DNA of 27,686 nucleotides from a virus, in UHGV virus genome UHGV-0385766; one strand, given 5' to 3'. Positions within the stretch are counted from its first letter, which is position 1. The number at the start of each line of letters is the position of its first letter. Positions 6,311 through 10,801 of this stretch are shown here, one piece after another. The position numbers were made by a program, and so were the translations under genes. The notes beneath the pieces are model-generated. The model did no database searches. It was not told the origin of the DNA and saw only the letters and a program-made list of their open reading frames with translations.

Positions 6311-6354
6311 AAAAAGAAAAACCGCAGCCACGACATATGCAGGACGTGCTGCGG
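6311..6354 (-). terminator. Intrinsic terminator of the int-dinI transcript
   Basis: Stem CCGCAGC(C)ACG (6322-6332) pairs with CGTGCTGCGG (6345-6354) with one bulge; on the minus strand it is followed by TTTTTCTTTTT (complement of 6311-6321). Confidence 0.45.
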
Positions 6355-6422
6355 CTGGCTGGCGAACTTTCGATAGTGCGAGTATTGAATGATTTCCAGC
6401 CGTTACCGATTTTACGTGTTAA

Positions 6423-6671
6423 TTAGTGAACAAACCACTCGTCAGCAGATTCCCAGGTATCTTTCAGAGTCTCCTGAACAAAAGTTTTTGCAGAATCCTT
6501 ATCTGCGATGCGTGTAACAGAAAGGCCATCGTTGCTGGTGGCTTTTACGAGCACCTCTACATCGTCATAACGTTTACTGATGCGTCGGGTTAATTCTTCC
6601 TTTAACGCATCCACAGCACCGGTTGGCATTTTAGTCATTTTTTCTTTGGCTATGCAGATTTCAATACGCAT
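6423..6671 (-). CDS. dinI: DinI-like protein (DNA damage-inducible protein I family)
   Basis: 82-aa ORF; [11 protein letters not shown]...[11 protein letters not shown] matches the DinI N- and C-terminal signatures from memory; GAGGG Shine-Dalgarno 6 nt upstream of ATG. Confidence 0.75.
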
Positions 6672-6684
6672 AAAAGTCCCTCTA

Positions 6685-6704
6685 TACTGTGTTTGTATAC
6701 AGTA
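6685..6704. promoter_or_regulatory. LexA (SOS) box, near-consensus
   Basis: TACTGTGTTTGTATACAGTA: CTGT-N8-ACAG with TA flanks, 14 bp upstream of the dinI-like start codon. Confidence 0.55.
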
Positions 6705-6712
6705 TTATTTTT

Positions 6713-6732
6713 AACTGTATGGATAAACAGTG
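6713..6732. promoter_or_regulatory. Second LexA-like box
   Basis: AACTGTATGGATAAACAGTG: CTGT-N8-ACAG, ending at the int stop codon. Confidence 0.4.
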
Positions 6733-7830
6733 TCAAGAGGTCTTATTCCTGCTCCTTTGGAGCTCTTCAAAACGATTATGTAAAGATTTCGGATACAGTT
6801 CGGTATATACCTGCCATAGCACGTTTAATGAACGATGCCCTGTAACCTGGGCTACTTCCTCAATACTAAAACCAGCCTCAAATAAGCGACTTGCCCCTTC
6901 TCTACGCAAATCATGGTATCGCAGATCCTTAATACCTAATTTGCTTCTTACCCTCTGAAATCCCGCAGTAACAGAAGTGCTGTTATATGGAAAAATGAAT
7001 TCCGATTTTTGGGGCTGTCGTTGGACGATATCCCAGGCTTCCCCAAGCAAGGCTACTTTCATGTGGTTGCCTTCCTTTTTGCGTGGATCTTTCCTGTCTC
7101 TTACGAGTATAGATTTTTGTTCCTGGTCGAGATCTTCCCATCGTAACCGGCATACTTCTCCGATTCGCATACAGGACCACACAGAAAATTTGAGGATATC
7201 AACGAACGGAATTTTTGAGCATTTATGAGTAGATCGTTGTTGAAGGCCTTCAATGAGCATGTCCAGTTCATCAGATGCTGGTCTACGATTACGACGGTTT
7301 GATTTACCAATCAAACCAAGTTTAAGTAGATATGGACGAGCACTTTTCGCCGGGTTTGATGTGTAATTAATTCCGTATACAGGTTTGGCCGCATCCAGAA
7401 CACTGCCAAGATAACTAACATCGTGGCTGACTGTTGCTGGACCTGCACCAGCGTTGTTTCTTAGCCTGCAATGTTCAATTACGTCATTTTCTGTCAGTTC
7501 AGATAGTTTGATCGCGGATATGTCACTATCCATAAGCAGTTCCAGCACATATCTTTTAGTACGGCCAGCTTTACCTCCAGCATTTGGGTCATTTAAATAT
7601 TTGTGTAGTAAGTCACGGACTGTAAGTCCGTCAACTGCATTTGATGATGGAATGCCATATAGATCTAATTCCATCACTTTCTGTGTGCCCCATGTTTTGG
7701 CATGAGCATGTTTAGGGAATGTTTTGCTTTCCCTGTAAGTGATAACACCTTTTTCTTTGATAATTACATTACAGCGATAGCGTGGTGTGCCATCGGATTT
7801 TAGTCGTTTCTCTATGTTATAGTACGCCAT
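6733..7830 (-). CDS. int: Tyrosine integrase (phage integrase family)
   Basis: 365-aa ORF; C-terminal catalytic region HDLRREGASRLFEAGFSIEEVAQVTGHRSLNVLWQVYTELY carries the R...HxxR...Y pattern. Confidence 0.9.
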   Translation of the reverse strand: MAYYNIEKRLKSDGTPRYRCNVIIKEKGVITYRESKTFPKHAHAKTWGTQKVMELDLYGIPSSNAVDGLTVRDLLHKYLNDPNAGGKAGRTKRYVLELLMDSDISAIKLSELTENDVIEHCRLRNNAGAGPATVSHDVSYLGSVLDAAKPVYGINYTSNPAKSARPYLLKLGLIGKSNRRNRRPASDELDMLIEGLQQRSTHKCSKIPFVDILKFSVWSCMRIGEVCRLRWEDLDQEQKSILVRDRKDPRKKEGNHMKVALLGEAWDIVQRQPQKSEFIFPYNSTSVTAGFQRVRSKLGIKDLRYHDLRREGASRLFEAGFSIEEVAQVTGHRSLNVLWQVYTELYPKSLHNRFEELQRSRNKTS

Positions 7831-7848
7831 TACACGACCTCGTTATTT

Positions 7849-8085
7849 CGGGTTCCCATAAAGCGTGGGAACCTGTGCGGGAACCTAACGCGAGAAAAAT
7901 AGCCTGAAATGTTCAAAAATGCACGATAATCATGAAACACAAAAAATTAATCAAACCAGCGTGATGCCTGAAAAAACTGGTGTTTACTGGAATTCTCGGT
8001 TTAGCATTGCTCCTATGCTTGATAGGATGTACCGTTTTTGAAAAACAACTAGTTATACACTTTGTGGGAGCCTATTGGGAACCTG
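7849..8085. other. Candidate attP / integrase arm-site region
   Basis: GGTTCCC (7851-7857) inverted against GGGAACC (7867-7873); GGGAACC again at 7879-7885 and 8077-8083; identical 10-mer TGGGAACCTG at 7866-7875 and 8076-8085; GGGAGCC at 8065-8071; AT-rich, non-coding. Confidence 0.3.
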
Positions 8086-8143
8086 AAGTTTTGCTCTTTC
8101 TATTCATATCTATTCATAAAGCACCATTTGCTGCCTTATCTGA

Positions 8144-8170
8144 TTGACCAAAAACAACCGCGGTTATAGA
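8144..8170 (+). promoter_or_regulatory. Candidate promoter of the two-gene cassette
   Basis: TTGACC (8144-8149) and TATAGA (8165-8170); the 15-bp spacer is short, so this is tentative. Confidence 0.25.
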
Positions 8171-8225
8171 CTTTGCTCCAAATATCTAAGGCTATTGCTT
8201 AGTAAGTAAAACAGTTGAGGTTGCC

Positions 8226-8765
8226 ATGAATCCGTTTAACGCCATTACTTTTGCTGCATTGTGCGGGCCTCTGGCTTGTCCTGCTGCTATGGCGCAGGAG
8301 TTCATCATCCAGCCAGCCCCTGTGATTGCTAAACCTTTTGAGTACTCTCCTTCTGTTGAGGAATTCTCACGCAAAATGGAAGAGGGTAAGGAGATCTTGC
8401 AAAAGTTAACAATTGCAGCAGATGACTACTATATCTGTTTGATTGATCTTAATAGCCAAGATGCTCGCGAGTTTGTTTCCAAAAACGGGACAGATACGAC
8501 AGAGGCATGCGAAATGTTCCTGCGTGCTTTTGAAGAAGAAGTGAAGCGTACAATTGAATCGCCTCTGCCTGAATTTATCAGGTCAGAACTGAAGGTTTAC
8601 TGGCGTCATATTGCTAAAGCTCGCTCATCTGTCACTCGCCTTAACAATTACATAAAGAGCATATTTAAAGAAACTGTTACTTTTAGCGGGCGCGCGGATC
8701 TTGCTGGAATTGCAGCACTAGCTAGTCACACATCAAATAAGCTAAAATCGATGCAATTTCACTAA
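8226..8765 (+). CDS. Hypothetical 179-aa protein with weakly hydrophobic N-terminus; first gene of cassette
   Basis: ORF with GAGG Shine-Dalgarno 5 nt upstream of ATG; low GC; no family recognised; N-terminus MNPFNAITFAALCGPLACPAAMAQE may be a signal peptide. Confidence 0.7.
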   Translation: MNPFNAITFAALCGPLACPAAMAQEFIIQPAPVIAKPFEYSPSVEEFSRKMEEGKEILQKLTIAADDYYICLIDLNSQDAREFVSKNGTDTTEACEMFLRAFEEEVKRTIESPLPEFIRSELKVYWRHIAKARSSVTRLNNYIKSIFKETVTFSGRADLAGIAALASHTSNKLKSMQFH

Positions 8766-8781
8766 CCGATAGCGGACGACC

Positions 8782-9216
8782 ATGCATCTAGAAGTCTCTA
8801 TTAATCCAGAAACTAGAGCTGAATTTTTTGATGAAGTTTTTCTCAAATTCCCGGAGCTAGAGTCTTCTATCATTGATGATTTCAAGAGATACAAAGCAAC
8901 CGGTGAGCTTCCGCATTATTTCGGTAGGGACGTTGCGTATACTCAGCCTTATGGTGCTTTTCGGGCTGGGTTGATGCATATCCATCTTTGTCTACCGCCA
9001 AATAAGTTTCCCGAGAAACTTCCACAACCGGATAGGGTCTGCAAGAAAGGTGATCCTGATAATGATGCTTGTCTTGTGTATGTCCAAGGTGAGCTTTATG
9101 AGAATAAATATTCACTCATTGCTATTATGTATCCCGATGCACATGAAAAAGCAAGAAAACATGATGTGATGAGCTATCTGGCGCGAATTGCCCAGAATTA
9201 TAAAGATGAAAACTAA
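8782..9216 (+). CDS. YafO-family toxin-like protein (putative ribosome-dependent mRNA interferase)
   Basis: 144-aa ORF 16 nt after the upstream gene; pattern DF..YK..G.LP..FGRD...HIHL...FP...LVY.QG...LIAI..P..H..AR matches my recollection of E. coli YafO. Recognition is from memory, not an alignment. Confidence 0.55.
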   Translation: MHLEVSINPETRAEFFDEVFLKFPELESSIIDDFKRYKATGELPHYFGRDVAYTQPYGAFRAGLMHIHLCLPPNKFPEKLPQPDRVCKKGDPDNDACLVYVQGELYENKYSLIAIMYPDAHEKARKHDVMSYLARIAQNYKDEN

Positions 9217-9242: not shown

Positions 9243-9515
9243 TTAGTTATTTATTTTCCTATTTGTTCTTACCCTCTCCCATTCAATTCTGCCTTCTTCA
9301 CGCCGTTTATCTATATATTCAGCAAGATCCTGAATGTTGATGCAGCGCTTTGCTTTCTGTGATGTACCAACACGATAAGTCGGGATCGGCAACTGGCATG
9401 CATTTGCTTTCGCTTCTGCTGTGTTAGGGCTCATACCGAAATACTTTTGGCATACAGCTGACAGCTCAATGTTTGGGGTATTGAATTCAGCCATCAGTAA
9501 AAACAAGGTGTTCAT
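9243..9515 (-). CDS. PrtN-like / excisionase-like DNA-binding protein
   Basis: Track ORF 9243-9542 uses a GTG start; the internal ATG at 9515 has a GGAGAAA Shine-Dalgarno and gives the N-terminus MNTLFLLMAEF; last gene of the leftward operon. Confidence 0.5.
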   Translation of the reverse strand: MNTLFLLMAEFNTPNIELSAVCQKYFGMSPNTAEAKANACQLPIPTYRVGTSQKAKRCINIQDLAEYIDKRREEGRIEWERVRTNRKINN

Positions 9516-9551
9516 AATTTTCTCCATCAAAACCGGCTGCACCCGGGGAAA

Positions 9552-10124
9552 TCATAATTCTGTGCTGGTGGCAGGAATTAATTTCTGCCAGATAGCGGAA
9601 ACATATTTTGCCTGATGACGGGCATCGGCCAGGGCGTTGTGCCGTTCGCCATCGAAAGGCATGTCCATTTTTGGGTCGAATCCGATGGAACGCCCAAGCG
9701 TAACGATCGTGCGTACATCGTGGTCATTCCAGTATGCCCACGGGCAGATTTGTCCTGCTCGCTCATAAGCTCCACGTAAAATTACGTTGTCGAAGGTGGC
9801 CCCGTTACCCCAGACTTTTAAATATTTCGTATTGGCTGCGTGCCGGTTAATGAAATGATTTAGTTCTGAGAGAGCATCGCTGATCGACAAAGTATCATCA
9901 ATACAGATTGCAGCTCGTGCTTCAGGGCTTTGTTTCAACCACCACAGGATGGTATCGCCGTCAGGTGTAGCTCCTTGCCCCATAGCACTTTCCAGGCTAA
10001 CAACCGTATAGAATTCTTGTCCGATGTATCCGGTTTCTGGAGTGAAGAACAGCGCGCCAATGGAAACGATCGGTGCATCCTTATTTTTCCCCATCGTCTC
10101 AAGGTCGATCATTAAGTTGTTCAT
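9552..10124 (-). CDS. 3'-5' exonuclease (DnaQ-like fold)
   Basis: Start MNNLMIDLETMG at 10124 with AGGAGGTGA Shine-Dalgarno and ATGA overlap with the upstream stop; DxE exonuclease motif; the track ORF extends to 10178 as an N-terminal artefact. Confidence 0.7.
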   Translation of the reverse strand: MNNLMIDLETMGKNKDAPIVSIGALFFTPETGYIGQEFYTVVSLESAMGQGATPDGDTILWWLKQSPEARAAICIDDTLSISDALSELNHFINRHAANTKYLKVWGNGATFDNVILRGAYERAGQICPWAYWNDHDVRTIVTLGRSIGFDPKMDMPFDGERHNALADARHQAKYVSAIWQKLIPATSTEL

Positions 10125-10801
10125 CACTTCACCTCCTGCGGCGGTTCTGGTAGAGGCATCCAATTGATTACATCGCATTCAGGTATGCTGATATCATCAC
10201 CAAGCCACCCTTGACCTTCAGACCAGCATTGCACGTAATACCCGTATTCTGTGTTCACTACGCACCACTGCGCGTCGTTCGGCATTCGCTCACTACAGCT
10301 TATCCAACCATCCGGAATTACCGGAGAGTTGCCACCGGGAATATTTTCCGGAATATTTTGTTGTGCGTTTTGTGGTTGTTCGGATTTACCCTGAAGCATG
10401 GCGGCGCAGCAGGCGTTCCATGAAATTTCCTGAAGGGAACGACGAATCTGTGTGCTGCATATACTCCTCCCTGACTCCTGGCTGTTAAACCATGTTTCAA
10501 ATTCCGGCACTACTGGTGCTGGTTGGGTGGTGACATTGGCAAAGGCTGCACGCACCCCGGCCTTAATTTCCTCTACCTCATCAGCACCTGGCGATGAATC
10601 TGACAGTGCGTGATGGAATGCGTAAGCCATGTCGTCGTTGATTTCTACAGGCACACTATCAGCCTTGCGGCGCTCCTGTAGCTCGCGCAGAGCCGCTACA
10701 ACATAATGGCTATTGTGCTGGTCAGCCCACAGAATGAGCCGAATCAACGTTGCATTTGAAACGTATTCGTCTGTTAGTTTGCTATTGGTAAAAGTCGTCA
10801 T
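10124..10801 (-). CDS. DUF551 domain protein
   Basis: 225-aa ORF; Trp/Cys-rich C-terminal domain GWISCSERMPNDAQWCVV... typical of DUF551; start overlaps the HNH stop (ATGA at 10798-10801). Confidence 0.65.
   Translation of the reverse strand: MTTFTNSKLTDEYVSNATLIRLILWADQHNSHYVVAALRELQERRKADSVPVEINDDMAYAFHHALSDSSPGADEVEEIKAGVRAAFANVTTQPAPVVPEFETWFNSQESGRSICSTQIRRSLQEISWNACCAAMLQGKSEQPQNAQQNIPENIPGGNSPVIPDGWISCSERMPNDAQWCVVNTEYGYYVQCWSEGQGWLGDDISIPECDVINWMPLPEPPQEVK

What the first reader, a model, noticed from the sequence alone, without database searches (positions are those of the whole stretch)
6672..6732. Two LexA boxes between int and a phage-borne DinI-like gene
A near-consensus SOS box (6685-6704) and a second CTGT-N8-ACAG box (6713-6732) fill the 61-bp gap between the int stop and the dinI-like start. 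This would place the dinI-like gene under host LexA control. DinI proteins modulate the RecA filament, and this phage's CI repressor has an S24 autocleavage domain, so a phage DinI could tune RecA-dependent prophage induction.
Basis: partly seen in the sequence, partly recalled or inferred. Interest (0 to 1): 0.45.

Follow-up and report, generated by a model that had tools for sequence, protein, structure and literature searches.

The report
LexA-controlled phage dinI cassette
The two LexA (SOS) boxes are real and sit on the promoter of a small phage-borne dinI-like gene, but this cassette is common in E. coli prophages and its SOS box was already annotated in a public phage record, so the finding is correct but ordinary.

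Summary
The 61-bp gap 6672-6732 holds the only two CTGT-N8-ACAG motifs in the 27.7-kb window. Their heterology indices are 5.22 and 7.20, the range of proven E. coli SOS operators; the next-best site in the window scores 16.1.

Both genes are on the minus strand. The gap is a complete sigma-70 promoter:
- The -35 hexamer TTGACA contains the int stop codon.
- Box 2 fills the spacer.
- The -10 is TAAAAAT.
- Box 1 covers the predicted start site, 13 nt before the ATG.
- A hairpin plus U-tract terminator follows the 82-aa DinI-family gene.

Homology with unrelated phages starts exactly at the -35, so this is a self-contained moron. The full cassette is in 1407 of 5426 complete E. coli genomes. The VT1-Sakai record annotates a putative SOS box at the homologous site. 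LexA control of the Gifsy dinI homologues in Salmonella is experimentally shown.

LexA control here is well supported by inference. The idea that the product tunes this phage's own RecA-dependent induction is plausible, already proposed in the literature, and untested; Gifsy dinI deletions showed no induction phenotype. Only the unannotated second operator is a small addition.

The parts
6731..6736 (-). -35 hexamer TTGACA of the dinI-like promoter. It contains the int stop codon TGA (6735->6733).
   Evidence: Read from the sequence. The promoter scan finds TTGACA-18-AAAAAT, 10 of 12 matches. The same promoter is annotated in mEp460 record JQ182728. Homology with phages that lack this int begins at this hexamer.
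6713..6732 (.). LexA box 2 (distal operator). On the minus strand it reads CACTGTTTATCCATACAGTT. It fills the -35/-10 spacer.
   Evidence: CTGT-N8-ACAG match. HI 7.20. Kept in all 55 IMG/VR relatives (HI 4.9-8.3) and in PhiR12_2 and P-EibC. Weakened in VT1-Sakai (HI 11.4) and lost in BP-4795.
6707..6713 (-). -10 element TAAAAAT
   Evidence: Invariant in the six-phage alignment.
6685..6704 (.). LexA box 1 (proximal operator). On the minus strand it reads TACTGTATACAAACACAGTA. It covers the predicted transcription start and ends 13 nt before the ATG.
   Evidence: CTGT-N8-ACAG match. HI 5.22. The CTG and CAG triplets are invariant in all class A homologues examined. The homologous site is annotated 'putative SOS box' in VT1-Sakai AP000400.
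6677..6683 (-). Shine-Dalgarno AGAGGGA, 5 nt before the ATG
   Evidence: Read from the sequence.
6423..6671 (-). dinI-like gene, 82 aa (stop codon included in the coordinates)
   Evidence: Pfam PF06183 DinI, E 1.6e-19. Matches PDB 1GHH/7YWA DinI over its full length, E 4.8e-13. 46% identical to E. coli DinI, with the C-terminal TWESADEWF helix conserved. Scores 72 bits against the NCBIfam DinI equivalog, below the 111-bit cut-off.
6311..6354 (-). Intrinsic terminator of the dinI-like transcript: a GC-rich hairpin (6354->6322) followed by UUUUUCUUUUU (6321->6311).
   Evidence: RNA fold of 6425->6300 and the sequence. The Stx2c phage homology block begins at about 6322.
6733..7830 (-). Upstream neighbour: a tyrosine integrase of the dusA-targeting kind, co-oriented with dinI, with no terminator between them.
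   Evidence: PF00589. The same block abuts full-length dusA in E. coli K-15KW01. The 61-bp gap holds only the promoter, the two operators and the Shine-Dalgarno, and no hairpin followed by a T-run.

Best explanation
The 61-bp gap is the promoter-operator region of a self-contained phage cargo cassette (a moron).

**Anatomy.** The cassette runs, on the minus strand:
- a sigma-70 promoter (-35 TTGACA, -10 TAAAAAT)
- two LexA operators
- a Shine-Dalgarno sequence
- an 82-aa DinI-family gene
- an intrinsic terminator

**Repression and induction.** In an undamaged lysogen, host LexA dimers occupy box 2 (in the spacer) and box 1 (over the start site). This keeps RNA polymerase off the promoter. After DNA damage, the RecA filament triggers LexA self-cleavage, both operators are vacated, and a monocistronic mRNA of about 390 nt is made.

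[quoted passage not shown] This adds to the cell's DinI pool. I commit to the reading that this moderates RecA co-protease activity and stabilises filaments late in the SOS response. The main benefit would be to the survival of the damaged lysogen. Any slowing of cleavage of the phage's own S24-type CI repressor would be a secondary effect.

**Shown versus inferred.**
- Shown here: the anatomy, the operator quality, the conservation, the family membership and the cassette boundaries.
- Inferred: LexA binding, the timing of derepression, RecA binding and the physiological effect.
For: **Operators**
- They are the only two CTGT-N8-ACAG motifs in the window.
- HI is 5.22 and 7.20, against 16.08 for the next-best site. 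Markov simulations give 0.001 such sites per window.
- In the published E. coli K-12 table, the cluster that holds the validated operators extends to HI 13.6.

**Promoter**
- TTGACA-17/18-TAAAAAT is found by the scan and was independently annotated in mEp460.

**Conservation**
- The same order (-35, box 2, -10, box 1, 13 nt, ATG) occurs in mEp460, SKA5, 1720a-02, PhiR12_2, P-EibC and VT1-Sakai, down to 62% protein identity.
- Upstream DNA is unrelated in the phages that lack this int.
- All 55 IMG/VR loci with enough upstream sequence (17 sequence variants) keep CTG-N10-CAG in both boxes. No substitution falls in the 12 core triplet positions.

**Prior annotation and experiment**
- VT1-Sakai annotates a putative SOS box and promoter at the homologous site.
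- Gifsy dinI homologues sit behind a LexA box needed for mitomycin C induction, and the protein accumulates after mitomycin C (PMC3121763).
- They are induced 4.6- to 23-fold by nalidixic acid (PMC8072944).

**Protein**
- PF06183.
- Full-length match to DinI 1GHH/7YWA.
- 46% identity to E. coli DinI, with the C-terminal helix conserved.

**Cassette limits**
- Terminator hairpin plus U-tract.
- The homology block with Stx2c phages is about 6322-6736.
- No ORF of 30 aa or more lies downstream on the same strand before the terminator.
Against: - No experiment exists for this class of cassette. I found no LexA binding or expression data for the att-proximal 82-aa type in the searchable literature.
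- The operator centres are 28 bp apart (about 2.7 helical turns), so cooperative binding on the same face of the helix is not evident.
- int is co-oriented with dinI and there is no terminator between them. int read-through could therefore express dinI independently of LexA.
- Box 2 has decayed in VT1-Sakai and BP-4795, so the second operator is dispensable.
- The protein scores below the NCBIfam DinI equivalog cut-off and carries two 2-residue insertions relative to host DinI. Identical biochemistry is therefore assumed, not shown.
- Gifsy dinI deletions gave no induction phenotype.
Confidence: 0.8

Rival explanations
1. The cassette exists mainly to tune this phage's own induction. SOS-made phage DinI competes with the S24-type CI for the RecA filament groove. 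That raises the damage threshold or delays CI cleavage, acting as a negative feedback on induction.
For: - CI is an HTH + Peptidase_S24 repressor with Ala-Gly, Ser and Lys in place.
- DinI and lambda CI use the same RecA groove elements (PMC9926225).
- LexA is cleaved early and CI late in the SOS response (abstract of PMC9926225), so DinI could be present before CI falls.
- The same suggestion was made for Stx2a phages (PMC8456039).
Against: - Non-polar deletions of the Gifsy-1 and Gifsy-3 dinI homologues did not change the level or rate of induction. However, those phages use antirepressors rather than CI cleavage (PMC3121763).
- The cassette is a mobile unit found next to many different immunity and integration modules, and in up to 9 places per genome. 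This fits a general cargo gene better than a part of one phage's switch.
Confidence: 0.25
2. The cassette is an induction module of the antirepressor type, like the Gifsy dinI-gfoA/gftA operon or Tum of coliphage 186. In those systems LexA controls an antirepressor that inactivates the phage repressor.
For: - LexA-controlled dinI homologues head antirepressor operons in the Gifsy prophages.
- Tum of phage 186 carries a DinI-like C-terminal half (PMC3121763).
- The nin-region phage dinI genes examined (mEp237, SEN34, Gifsy-1, Klebsiella and Aeromonas phages) are followed by a small ORF and a further conserved ORF, annotated DUF1367 or NinB/Orf homologue in some records.
Against: - Here dinI is followed only by about 70 nt of untranslated RNA and a terminator. 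No ORF of 30 aa or more fits.
- The protein is 82 aa, DinI fold only, with no N-terminal extension.
- CI has its own autocleavage domain.
- In PSP3 the DinI-like gene is not the one that carries antirepressor activity (personal communication cited in PMC3121763).
Confidence: 0.03
3. The boxes are inactive remnants, and the gene is expressed by read-through from int. Alternatively, LexA bound here mainly serves as a roadblock that ends int transcripts.
For: - int and dinI are co-oriented.
- The int stop codon lies inside the -35 hexamer.
- No terminator separates the two genes.
Against: - Both boxes score like proven operators, and their core triplets are conserved where neighbouring positions vary.
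- The same promoter-operator unit works without any int upstream in VT1-Sakai, PhiR12_2, P-EibC and the Stx phages.
Confidence: 0.05
4. The functional payload is partly or mainly an sRNA released from the dinI-like 3'UTR, by analogy with Klebsiella DinR. DinR is cut from the LexA-controlled dinI mRNA and represses ftsZ.
For: - DinR precedent (PMC10907235).
- The 3'UTR here is about 110 nt, structured, and ends in a strong terminator.
- The 3'UTR plus the last 58 nt of the gene survive as an unannotated relic next to ykgJ in nearly all E. coli genomes.
Against: - No Rfam family hits anywhere in the window.
- The fold z-score is only -1.97.
- The 3'UTR is not conserved among class A phage cassettes beyond the closest relatives.
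- The ftsZ-pairing part of DinR is Klebsiella-specific.
- No target pairing was tested here.
Confidence: 0.05

Closest known systems
dinI homologue H0001 of Stx1 phage VT1-Sakai (GenBank AP000400), with its annotated 'putative SOS box' and promoter
   Same: The cassette is homologous: about 91% DNA identity over 6380-6736 and 93% protein identity. The order is the same: -35 TTGACA, distal box, -10 TAAAAAT, proximal box 13 nt before the ATG. The position is the same, at the tail-fibre/att end of a lambdoid phage and antisense to the late genes.
   Different: In VT1-Sakai the cassette abuts the att site in yehV rather than an int gene. A ykgJ-like gene follows and is annotated as sharing the promoter. 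Its boxes are weaker (HI 9.5 and 11.4, against 5.2 and 7.2 here), and only the proximal one is annotated.
dinI-like gene mEp460_021 of phage mEp460 (JQ182728 / NC_019716)
   Same: 99.3% identical over 6380-6800, with the same stf/dinI/int arrangement and the same annotated promoter. Both LexA boxes are identical.
   Different: mEp460 has a lambda-like side tail fibre module instead of the Mu/e14-like baseplate module of this window. No LexA site is annotated in that record.
LexA-controlled dinI-gfoA/gftA-irsA operons of Salmonella prophages Gifsy-1, -2 and -3 (Lemire et al. 2011, PMC3121763; PMC8072944)
   Same: Each is a phage-borne DinI-family gene directly behind a promoter with a high-affinity LexA box. 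For Gifsy-1 I computed HI 5.26 with the box 19 nt before the ATG; the published values are 3.9-5.3. SOS induction is experimentally shown.
   Different: The Gifsy genes have one box rather than two. Their proteins are 77 aa and only 42-45% identical to this one, without its two 2-residue insertions. They lie in the nin region and are followed by an antirepressor gene that drives induction. The Gifsy repressors are not cleaved, whereas this phage has an S24-type CI and no antirepressor ORF after dinI.
Chromosomal dinI of E. coli (PDB 1GHH, 7YWA)
   Same: Same fold family, with a full-length alignment at 46% identity and a conserved C-terminal acidic helix. It is also a LexA-repressed monocistronic gene. 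The HI 6.24 box in the published table is, from my memory, the dinI box.
   Different: The phage gene is a paralogue, scoring below the NCBIfam equivalog cut-off. It has two operators rather than one and lies on a mobile cassette.
Tum antirepressor of coliphage 186
   Same: It is a LexA-repressed phage gene with a DinI-like segment (PMC3121763).
   Different: Tum is 146 aa, with an antirepressor half fused to the DinI-like half. The protein here is 82 aa, DinI-like only.

Membership tests
E. coli-type LexA operator (SOS box) | 20-bp palindrome with CTG-N10-CAG, close to TACTGTATATATATACAGTA, with a heterology index in the range of operators that bind LexA | tested here: met
   HI is 5.22 (box 1) and 7.20 (box 2), using a matrix recovered exactly from published values. 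The cluster holding the validated E. coli operators extends to HI 13.6.
E. coli-type LexA operator (SOS box) | Placed so that bound LexA occludes a promoter | tested here: met
   Box 2 fills the -35/-10 spacer. Box 1 spans the predicted start site.
E. coli-type LexA operator (SOS box) | Conserved in homologous loci beyond the background level | tested here: met
   Box 1 core triplets are invariant in all class A homologues examined. Both boxes are intact in 55 of 55 IMG/VR loci (17 variants, no change in the 12 core positions). Flanks upstream of the -35 are unrelated in the phages that lack this int.
E. coli-type LexA operator (SOS box) | Binds LexA, and the gene is derepressed upon DNA damage in a recA/lexA-dependent way | not testable with these tools
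   This is shown only for the distantly related Gifsy dinI promoters. I found no data for this class of cassette.
DinI family (Pfam PF06183) | Significant full-length match to the family profile and to the solved DinI structure | tested here: met
   PF06183 scores 70.4 bits against a cut-off of 24.2. The match to 1GHH/7YWA has E 4.8e-13 over residues 1-81.
DinI family (Pfam PF06183) | Acidic C-terminal helix that contacts RecA | tested here: met
   TWESADEWF here aligns with TWESADDWF in E. coli DinI. E74, A76, D77, W79 and F80 are invariant in 12 sequences.
Chromosomal DinI orthologue (NCBIfam NF007893 equivalog) | Score at or above the curated equivalog cut-off | tested here: not met
   72 bits against a cut-off of 111. 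The gene is a family member but not the housekeeping orthologue.
Phage moron (autonomous cargo cassette) | Own promoter and own terminator flanking a gene that is not needed for lytic growth, inserted between conserved modules, with homology breakpoints at the cassette ends | tested here: met
   Promoter. Terminator. Homology with phages that have other neighbours runs from about 6322 to 6736. The cassette lies between the tail-fibre genes and int or att in all records inspected.
Gifsy-type LexA-controlled dinI-antirepressor operon | Small antirepressor gene co-transcribed downstream of dinI | tested here: not met
   No ORF of 30 aa or more lies on the minus strand between 6422 and the terminator at 6354-6311.
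Tum (coliphage 186) fused antirepressor-DinI | Protein of about 146 aa with an N-terminal antirepressor half | tested here: not met
   The protein is 82 aa and aligns end to end with the 81-aa DinI.

The most novel reading that the evidence does not exclude
The cassettes may act in trans and add up. Each would be an SOS-induced, LexA-gated supply of a RecA-groove binder. Together (up to 9 places per E. coli genome match the cassette at least in part) they could raise the damage threshold for RecA-dependent repressor cleavage of all co-resident prophages, including Stx phages. They could also limit UmuD cleavage. Prophage dinI copy number would then be a hidden determinant of induction, toxin release and SOS mutagenesis. 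The tight double operator seen here (HI 5.2 and 7.2) would make this brake come on only under sustained damage.
Probability: 0.2. Interest if true: 0.5.

Novelty: already known. Interest (0 to 1): 0.15.

Why it matters
The finding shows where the host SOS repressor touches this part of the phage. Within the 27.7 kb examined, LexA can act only at the dinI-like promoter. The lysis-lysogeny switch itself must therefore sense damage through CI self-cleavage.

The cassette is very common: its full length is in about a quarter of complete E. coli genomes, often in several copies, including Stx phages. A real effect of phage DinI on RecA activity would therefore bear on prophage induction, Shiga-toxin release and SOS mutagenesis under antibiotics.

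That functional question is still open, but the sequence feature itself is not new.

Tried and rejected
- **Rfam.** A scan of the whole window at gathering thresholds found nothing, so no known RNA lies in the gap or the 3'UTR.
- **Terminator scan.** The generic scan missed the dinI terminator because its loop is longer than the scan allows. Folding found it.
- **IMG/VR search.** A single-protein query returned only 98-100% identical relatives. These served for a within-clade conservation count but not for deep comparison. Diverged homologues came from a tblastn of phage records instead.
- **Stx2a_JNE122398 and Yersinia YeP1.** The Stx2a_JNE122398 locus holds only an internal dinI fragment without a promoter. 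In YeP1 the dinI gene starts 10 nt after an upstream ORF and has no box. Both were uninformative for operator conservation.
- **Expression data.** I looked for evidence that the E. coli phage dinI copies are SOS-induced. The EHEC ciprofloxacin and mitomycin C papers report only the chromosomal dinI.
- **First Markov simulation.** It timed out and was rerun.
- **Rejected: the palindromes are int terminators.** The stems are only 6 bp and no U-tract follows.
- **Rejected: the boxes are att-related recombinase sites.** The att site lies on the other side of int, in the dusA fragment.
- **Not done.** I did not predict the structure, search protein databases for homologues, or test pairing of the 3'UTR with ftsZ.

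Full report
**1. What is in the sequence**

Both genes flanking the finding lie on the minus strand.
- The tyrosine integrase runs 7830->6733 (365 aa, PF00589).
- The DinI-family gene runs 6671->6423 (82 aa, PF06183, E 1.6e-19).

It contains TACTGTGTTTGTATACAGTA (6685-6704) and AACTGTATGGATAAACAGTG (6713-6732).

Read in the sense of the genes, the gap is a complete promoter-operator region:
- The -35 hexamer TTGACA is at 6736->6731. The int stop codon TGA (6735->6733) lies inside it.
- Box 2 follows as the 17/18-nt spacer.
- The -10 element TAAAAAT is at 6713->6707.
- Box 1 is at 6704->6685, over the predicted start site.
- The Shine-Dalgarno AGAGGGA is at 6683->6677, followed by the ATG at 6671.

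The promoter scan reports TTGACA-18-AAAAAT with 10 of 12 matches. The authors of the mEp460 record annotated the same promoter independently.

Downstream of the stop codon there is about 70 nt of untranslated RNA. A GC-rich hairpin (6354->6322) with UUUUUCUUUUU (6321->6311) follows. No ORF of 30 aa or more fits between the gene and this terminator.

**2. Is it more than chance?**

CTGT-N8-ACAG occurs exactly twice in the 27,686-bp window, both times in this gap, against 0.36 expected.

To score the boxes I took 142 published pairs of sequence and heterology index (HI) for E. coli K-12 (PSOSP Table S1, PMC12527982). I solved for the underlying additive matrix. The fit is exact, with a maximum error of 5e-5, and the matrix is symmetric.

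| Site | HI |
|---|---|
| Box 1 | 5.22 |
| Box 2 | 7.20 |
| recA | 4.31 |
| sulA | 4.65 |
| dinI | 6.24 |
| uvrA/ssb | 6.98 |
| Upper edge of the cluster holding the validated operators | 13.6 |

The table lists sequences without gene names; I assigned the host genes from memory. The host values and the cluster edge come from the same published table.

The window has 21 CTG-N10-CAG sites in all. After these two, the best scores 16.08. In 1000 first-order Markov simulations of the window, the mean number of sites with HI <= 7.2 was 0.001. No simulation had two within 60 bp.

This promoter is also the only credible LexA target in the window.

**3. Comparative evidence**

The region is 99.3% identical to phage mEp460 and 98.8% to phage SKA5. 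The stretch 6322-6740 is 100% identical to a prophage in E. coli K-15KW01.

A tblastn of phage records found DinI-like genes in 133 records. I fetched 13 diverged ones and scanned upstream of each start codon. Two kinds of module emerge.

*Class A* has 82-aa proteins at the tail-fibre/att end of the genome. Members examined are this window, mEp460, SKA5, 1720a-02, PhiR12_2, P-EibC, VT1-Sakai and BP-4795.
- All share the order -35 / box 2 / -10 / box 1 / 13 nt / ATG.
- Sequence upstream of the -35 is unrelated in the phages that do not carry this int.
- The CTG and CAG triplets of box 1 are invariant. Inner and flanking positions vary, giving HI 5.2-11.1.
- Box 2 is strong in most (HI 4.9-7.2), weak in VT1-Sakai (11.4) and destroyed in BP-4795 (CAG->CAA).

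Among 55 near-identical IMG/VR loci with enough upstream sequence there are 17 variants of the 66-nt region. All keep both boxes (HI 4.9-8.3). None has a change in the 12 core triplet positions.

*Class B* has 77-aa proteins in the nin region. Members examined are Gifsy-1, mEp237, SEN34, Klebsiella phages and an Aeromonas phage.
- All have a single strong box (HI 3.8-5.3) 15-19 nt before the ATG.
- All are followed by a small ORF and a further conserved ORF, annotated DUF1367 or NinB/Orf homologue in some records.

Homology between this window and Stx2c phages runs from about 6322 (the foot of the terminator) to about 6736 (the -35). The unit from promoter to terminator therefore behaves as a mobile cassette, a classical moron.

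The full cassette is present in 1407 of 5426 complete E. coli genomes. Genomes that have any match carry up to 9 matching places.

**4. What is already known**

- The VT1-Sakai record (AP000400) annotates a 'putative SOS box' and a promoter upstream of its dinI homologue H0001. This is the position homologous to box 1.
[quoted passage not shown] The LexA-box region is needed for mitomycin C induction, and the DinI homologue accumulates after mitomycin C. Non-polar deletions of the dinI homologues did not alter induction (PMC3121763).
- The three Gifsy dinI homologues are induced 4.6- to 23-fold by nalidixic acid (PMC8072944).
- The suggestion that a phage DinI would limit induction of its own Stx2a phage is in print (PMC8456039).
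- A phage DinI-like gene was linked statistically to the emergence of quinolone resistance (bioRxiv 10.1101/2023.06.20.545734).

I found no experiment on the class A cassette itself.

**5. The protein**

The protein aligns end to end with E. coli DinI (PDB 1GHH and 7YWA; E 4.8e-13). Identity is 46%. The C-terminal helix TWESADEWF is conserved across 12 phage and host sequences.

It scores 72 bits against the NCBIfam equivalog for chromosomal DinI, where the cut-off is 111. It also has two 2-residue insertions that are typical of class A. It is therefore a family member but a paralogue.

The phage's CI (18153->17467, 228 aa) has HTH_3 and Peptidase_S24 domains. It also has an Ala-Gly site, the GNSLLP serine and the RVKIL lysine.

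**6. How it most likely works**

*Shown here:* the anatomy, the operator scores, the conservation, the family membership and the cassette limits.

*Inferred:*
- LexA occupies both operators in undamaged lysogens and blocks RNA polymerase.
- RecA-stimulated LexA cleavage frees the promoter.
- A monocistronic mRNA of about 390 nt is made.
- The protein joins host DinI on RecA filaments.
- With one good and one medium operator, the promoter should be among the more tightly held SOS promoters.

I commit to the reading that the cassette is a general cargo gene. It would moderate RecA co-protease activity and stabilise filaments in a damaged lysogen. An effect on this phage's own CI cleavage would be possible but secondary. 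My reasons are:
- The cassette moves independently of immunity and integration modules.
- It is often present in several copies per genome.
- The only genetic test of phage dinI genes showed no induction phenotype. That test was done in phages that do not rely on repressor cleavage.

**7. Rivals**

- *Antirepressor-type modules (Gifsy, 186 Tum).* Excluded by the absence of a downstream ORF and by the size of the protein.
- *Inactive boxes with expression by int read-through.* Unlikely, given operator quality and conservation, and given that the same unit occurs without int. Read-through from int remains possible, because no terminator separates the genes.
- *A DinR-like sRNA from the 3'UTR* (PMC10907235). 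Not excluded, but it has little support: there is no Rfam hit, the fold z-score is modest, and the UTR is variable among phages.

**8. Verdict**

The kind of element is known and common. A homologous site was annotated as an SOS box in a public record. The proposed role in tuning induction is an existing, untested hypothesis. The only small addition is the second, unannotated operator in the promoter spacer, which is conserved in most but not all relatives.

Interest is low. Novelty: already known.

Noticed in passing
window 7919-8041 (+), and the non-coding stretch 7831-8225: A 40-aa ORF upstream of int, divergent from it, is a 5' fragment of the host gene dusA; the SKA5 record calls it 'tRNA-dihydrouridine'. 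In E. coli K-15KW01 the identical tail/dinI/int block abuts full-length dusA. The integrase is therefore of the dusA-targeting kind, attP lies just upstream of int, and the window shows the excised (phage) form rather than an integrated prophage.
   Followed up: partly
window 6344-6480; L098 2501-2640: The last ~58 nt of the dinI-like gene plus its 3'UTR match, at about 86%, an unannotated stretch between ykgJ and ecpE in roughly 5200 of 5426 complete E. coli genomes. VT1-Sakai carries a ykgJ-like gene right after its dinI. Chromosomal ykgJ may therefore be the remnant of an old phage dinI-ykgJ cassette. No CTG-N10-CAG remains in that intergenic region.
   Followed up: partly
window 6380-6416: A 36-37-nt stretch just downstream of the dinI-like stop codon is 100% identical in HK97, phi80, HK75, HK106, mEpX2 and several Stx2 phages that have no dinI there. 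In HK97 it abuts the annotated sib retroregulation site. It looks like a conserved lambdoid mosaic junction.
   Followed up: partly
window 8226-8765 (+) and 8782-9216 (+): A YafO-family toxin ORF (PF13957, E 1.9e-21) is preceded by a 179-aa ORF with no Pfam hit. This may be a toxin-antitoxin cargo pair between attP and the early genes. From my own knowledge, host yafO belongs to the LexA-controlled dinB operon. No LexA-like site lies near this copy.
   Followed up: no
L084 (phage 1720a-02) 601-849: This phage's dinI gene is a mosaic. The promoter and 5' half are like the window, and the 3' half is like P-EibC and BP-4795. This shows recombination inside the cassette.
   Followed up: no
L089 (Stx2a_JNE122398) 601-783, and many similar Stx2a phage records: These records hold only an internal fragment of dinI (query residues 11-71, 77% identity), with no start codon, promoter or LexA box upstream. 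It is a decayed copy.
   Followed up: no
window 9243-9542 (-) and 9552-10178 (-): A PrtN (pyocin activator) family protein, possibly the excisionase or a regulator, lies next to a protein with an Rv2179c-like 3'-5' exoribonuclease domain (E 1.5e-73). Both are at the att-proximal end of the early-left genes.
   Followed up: no
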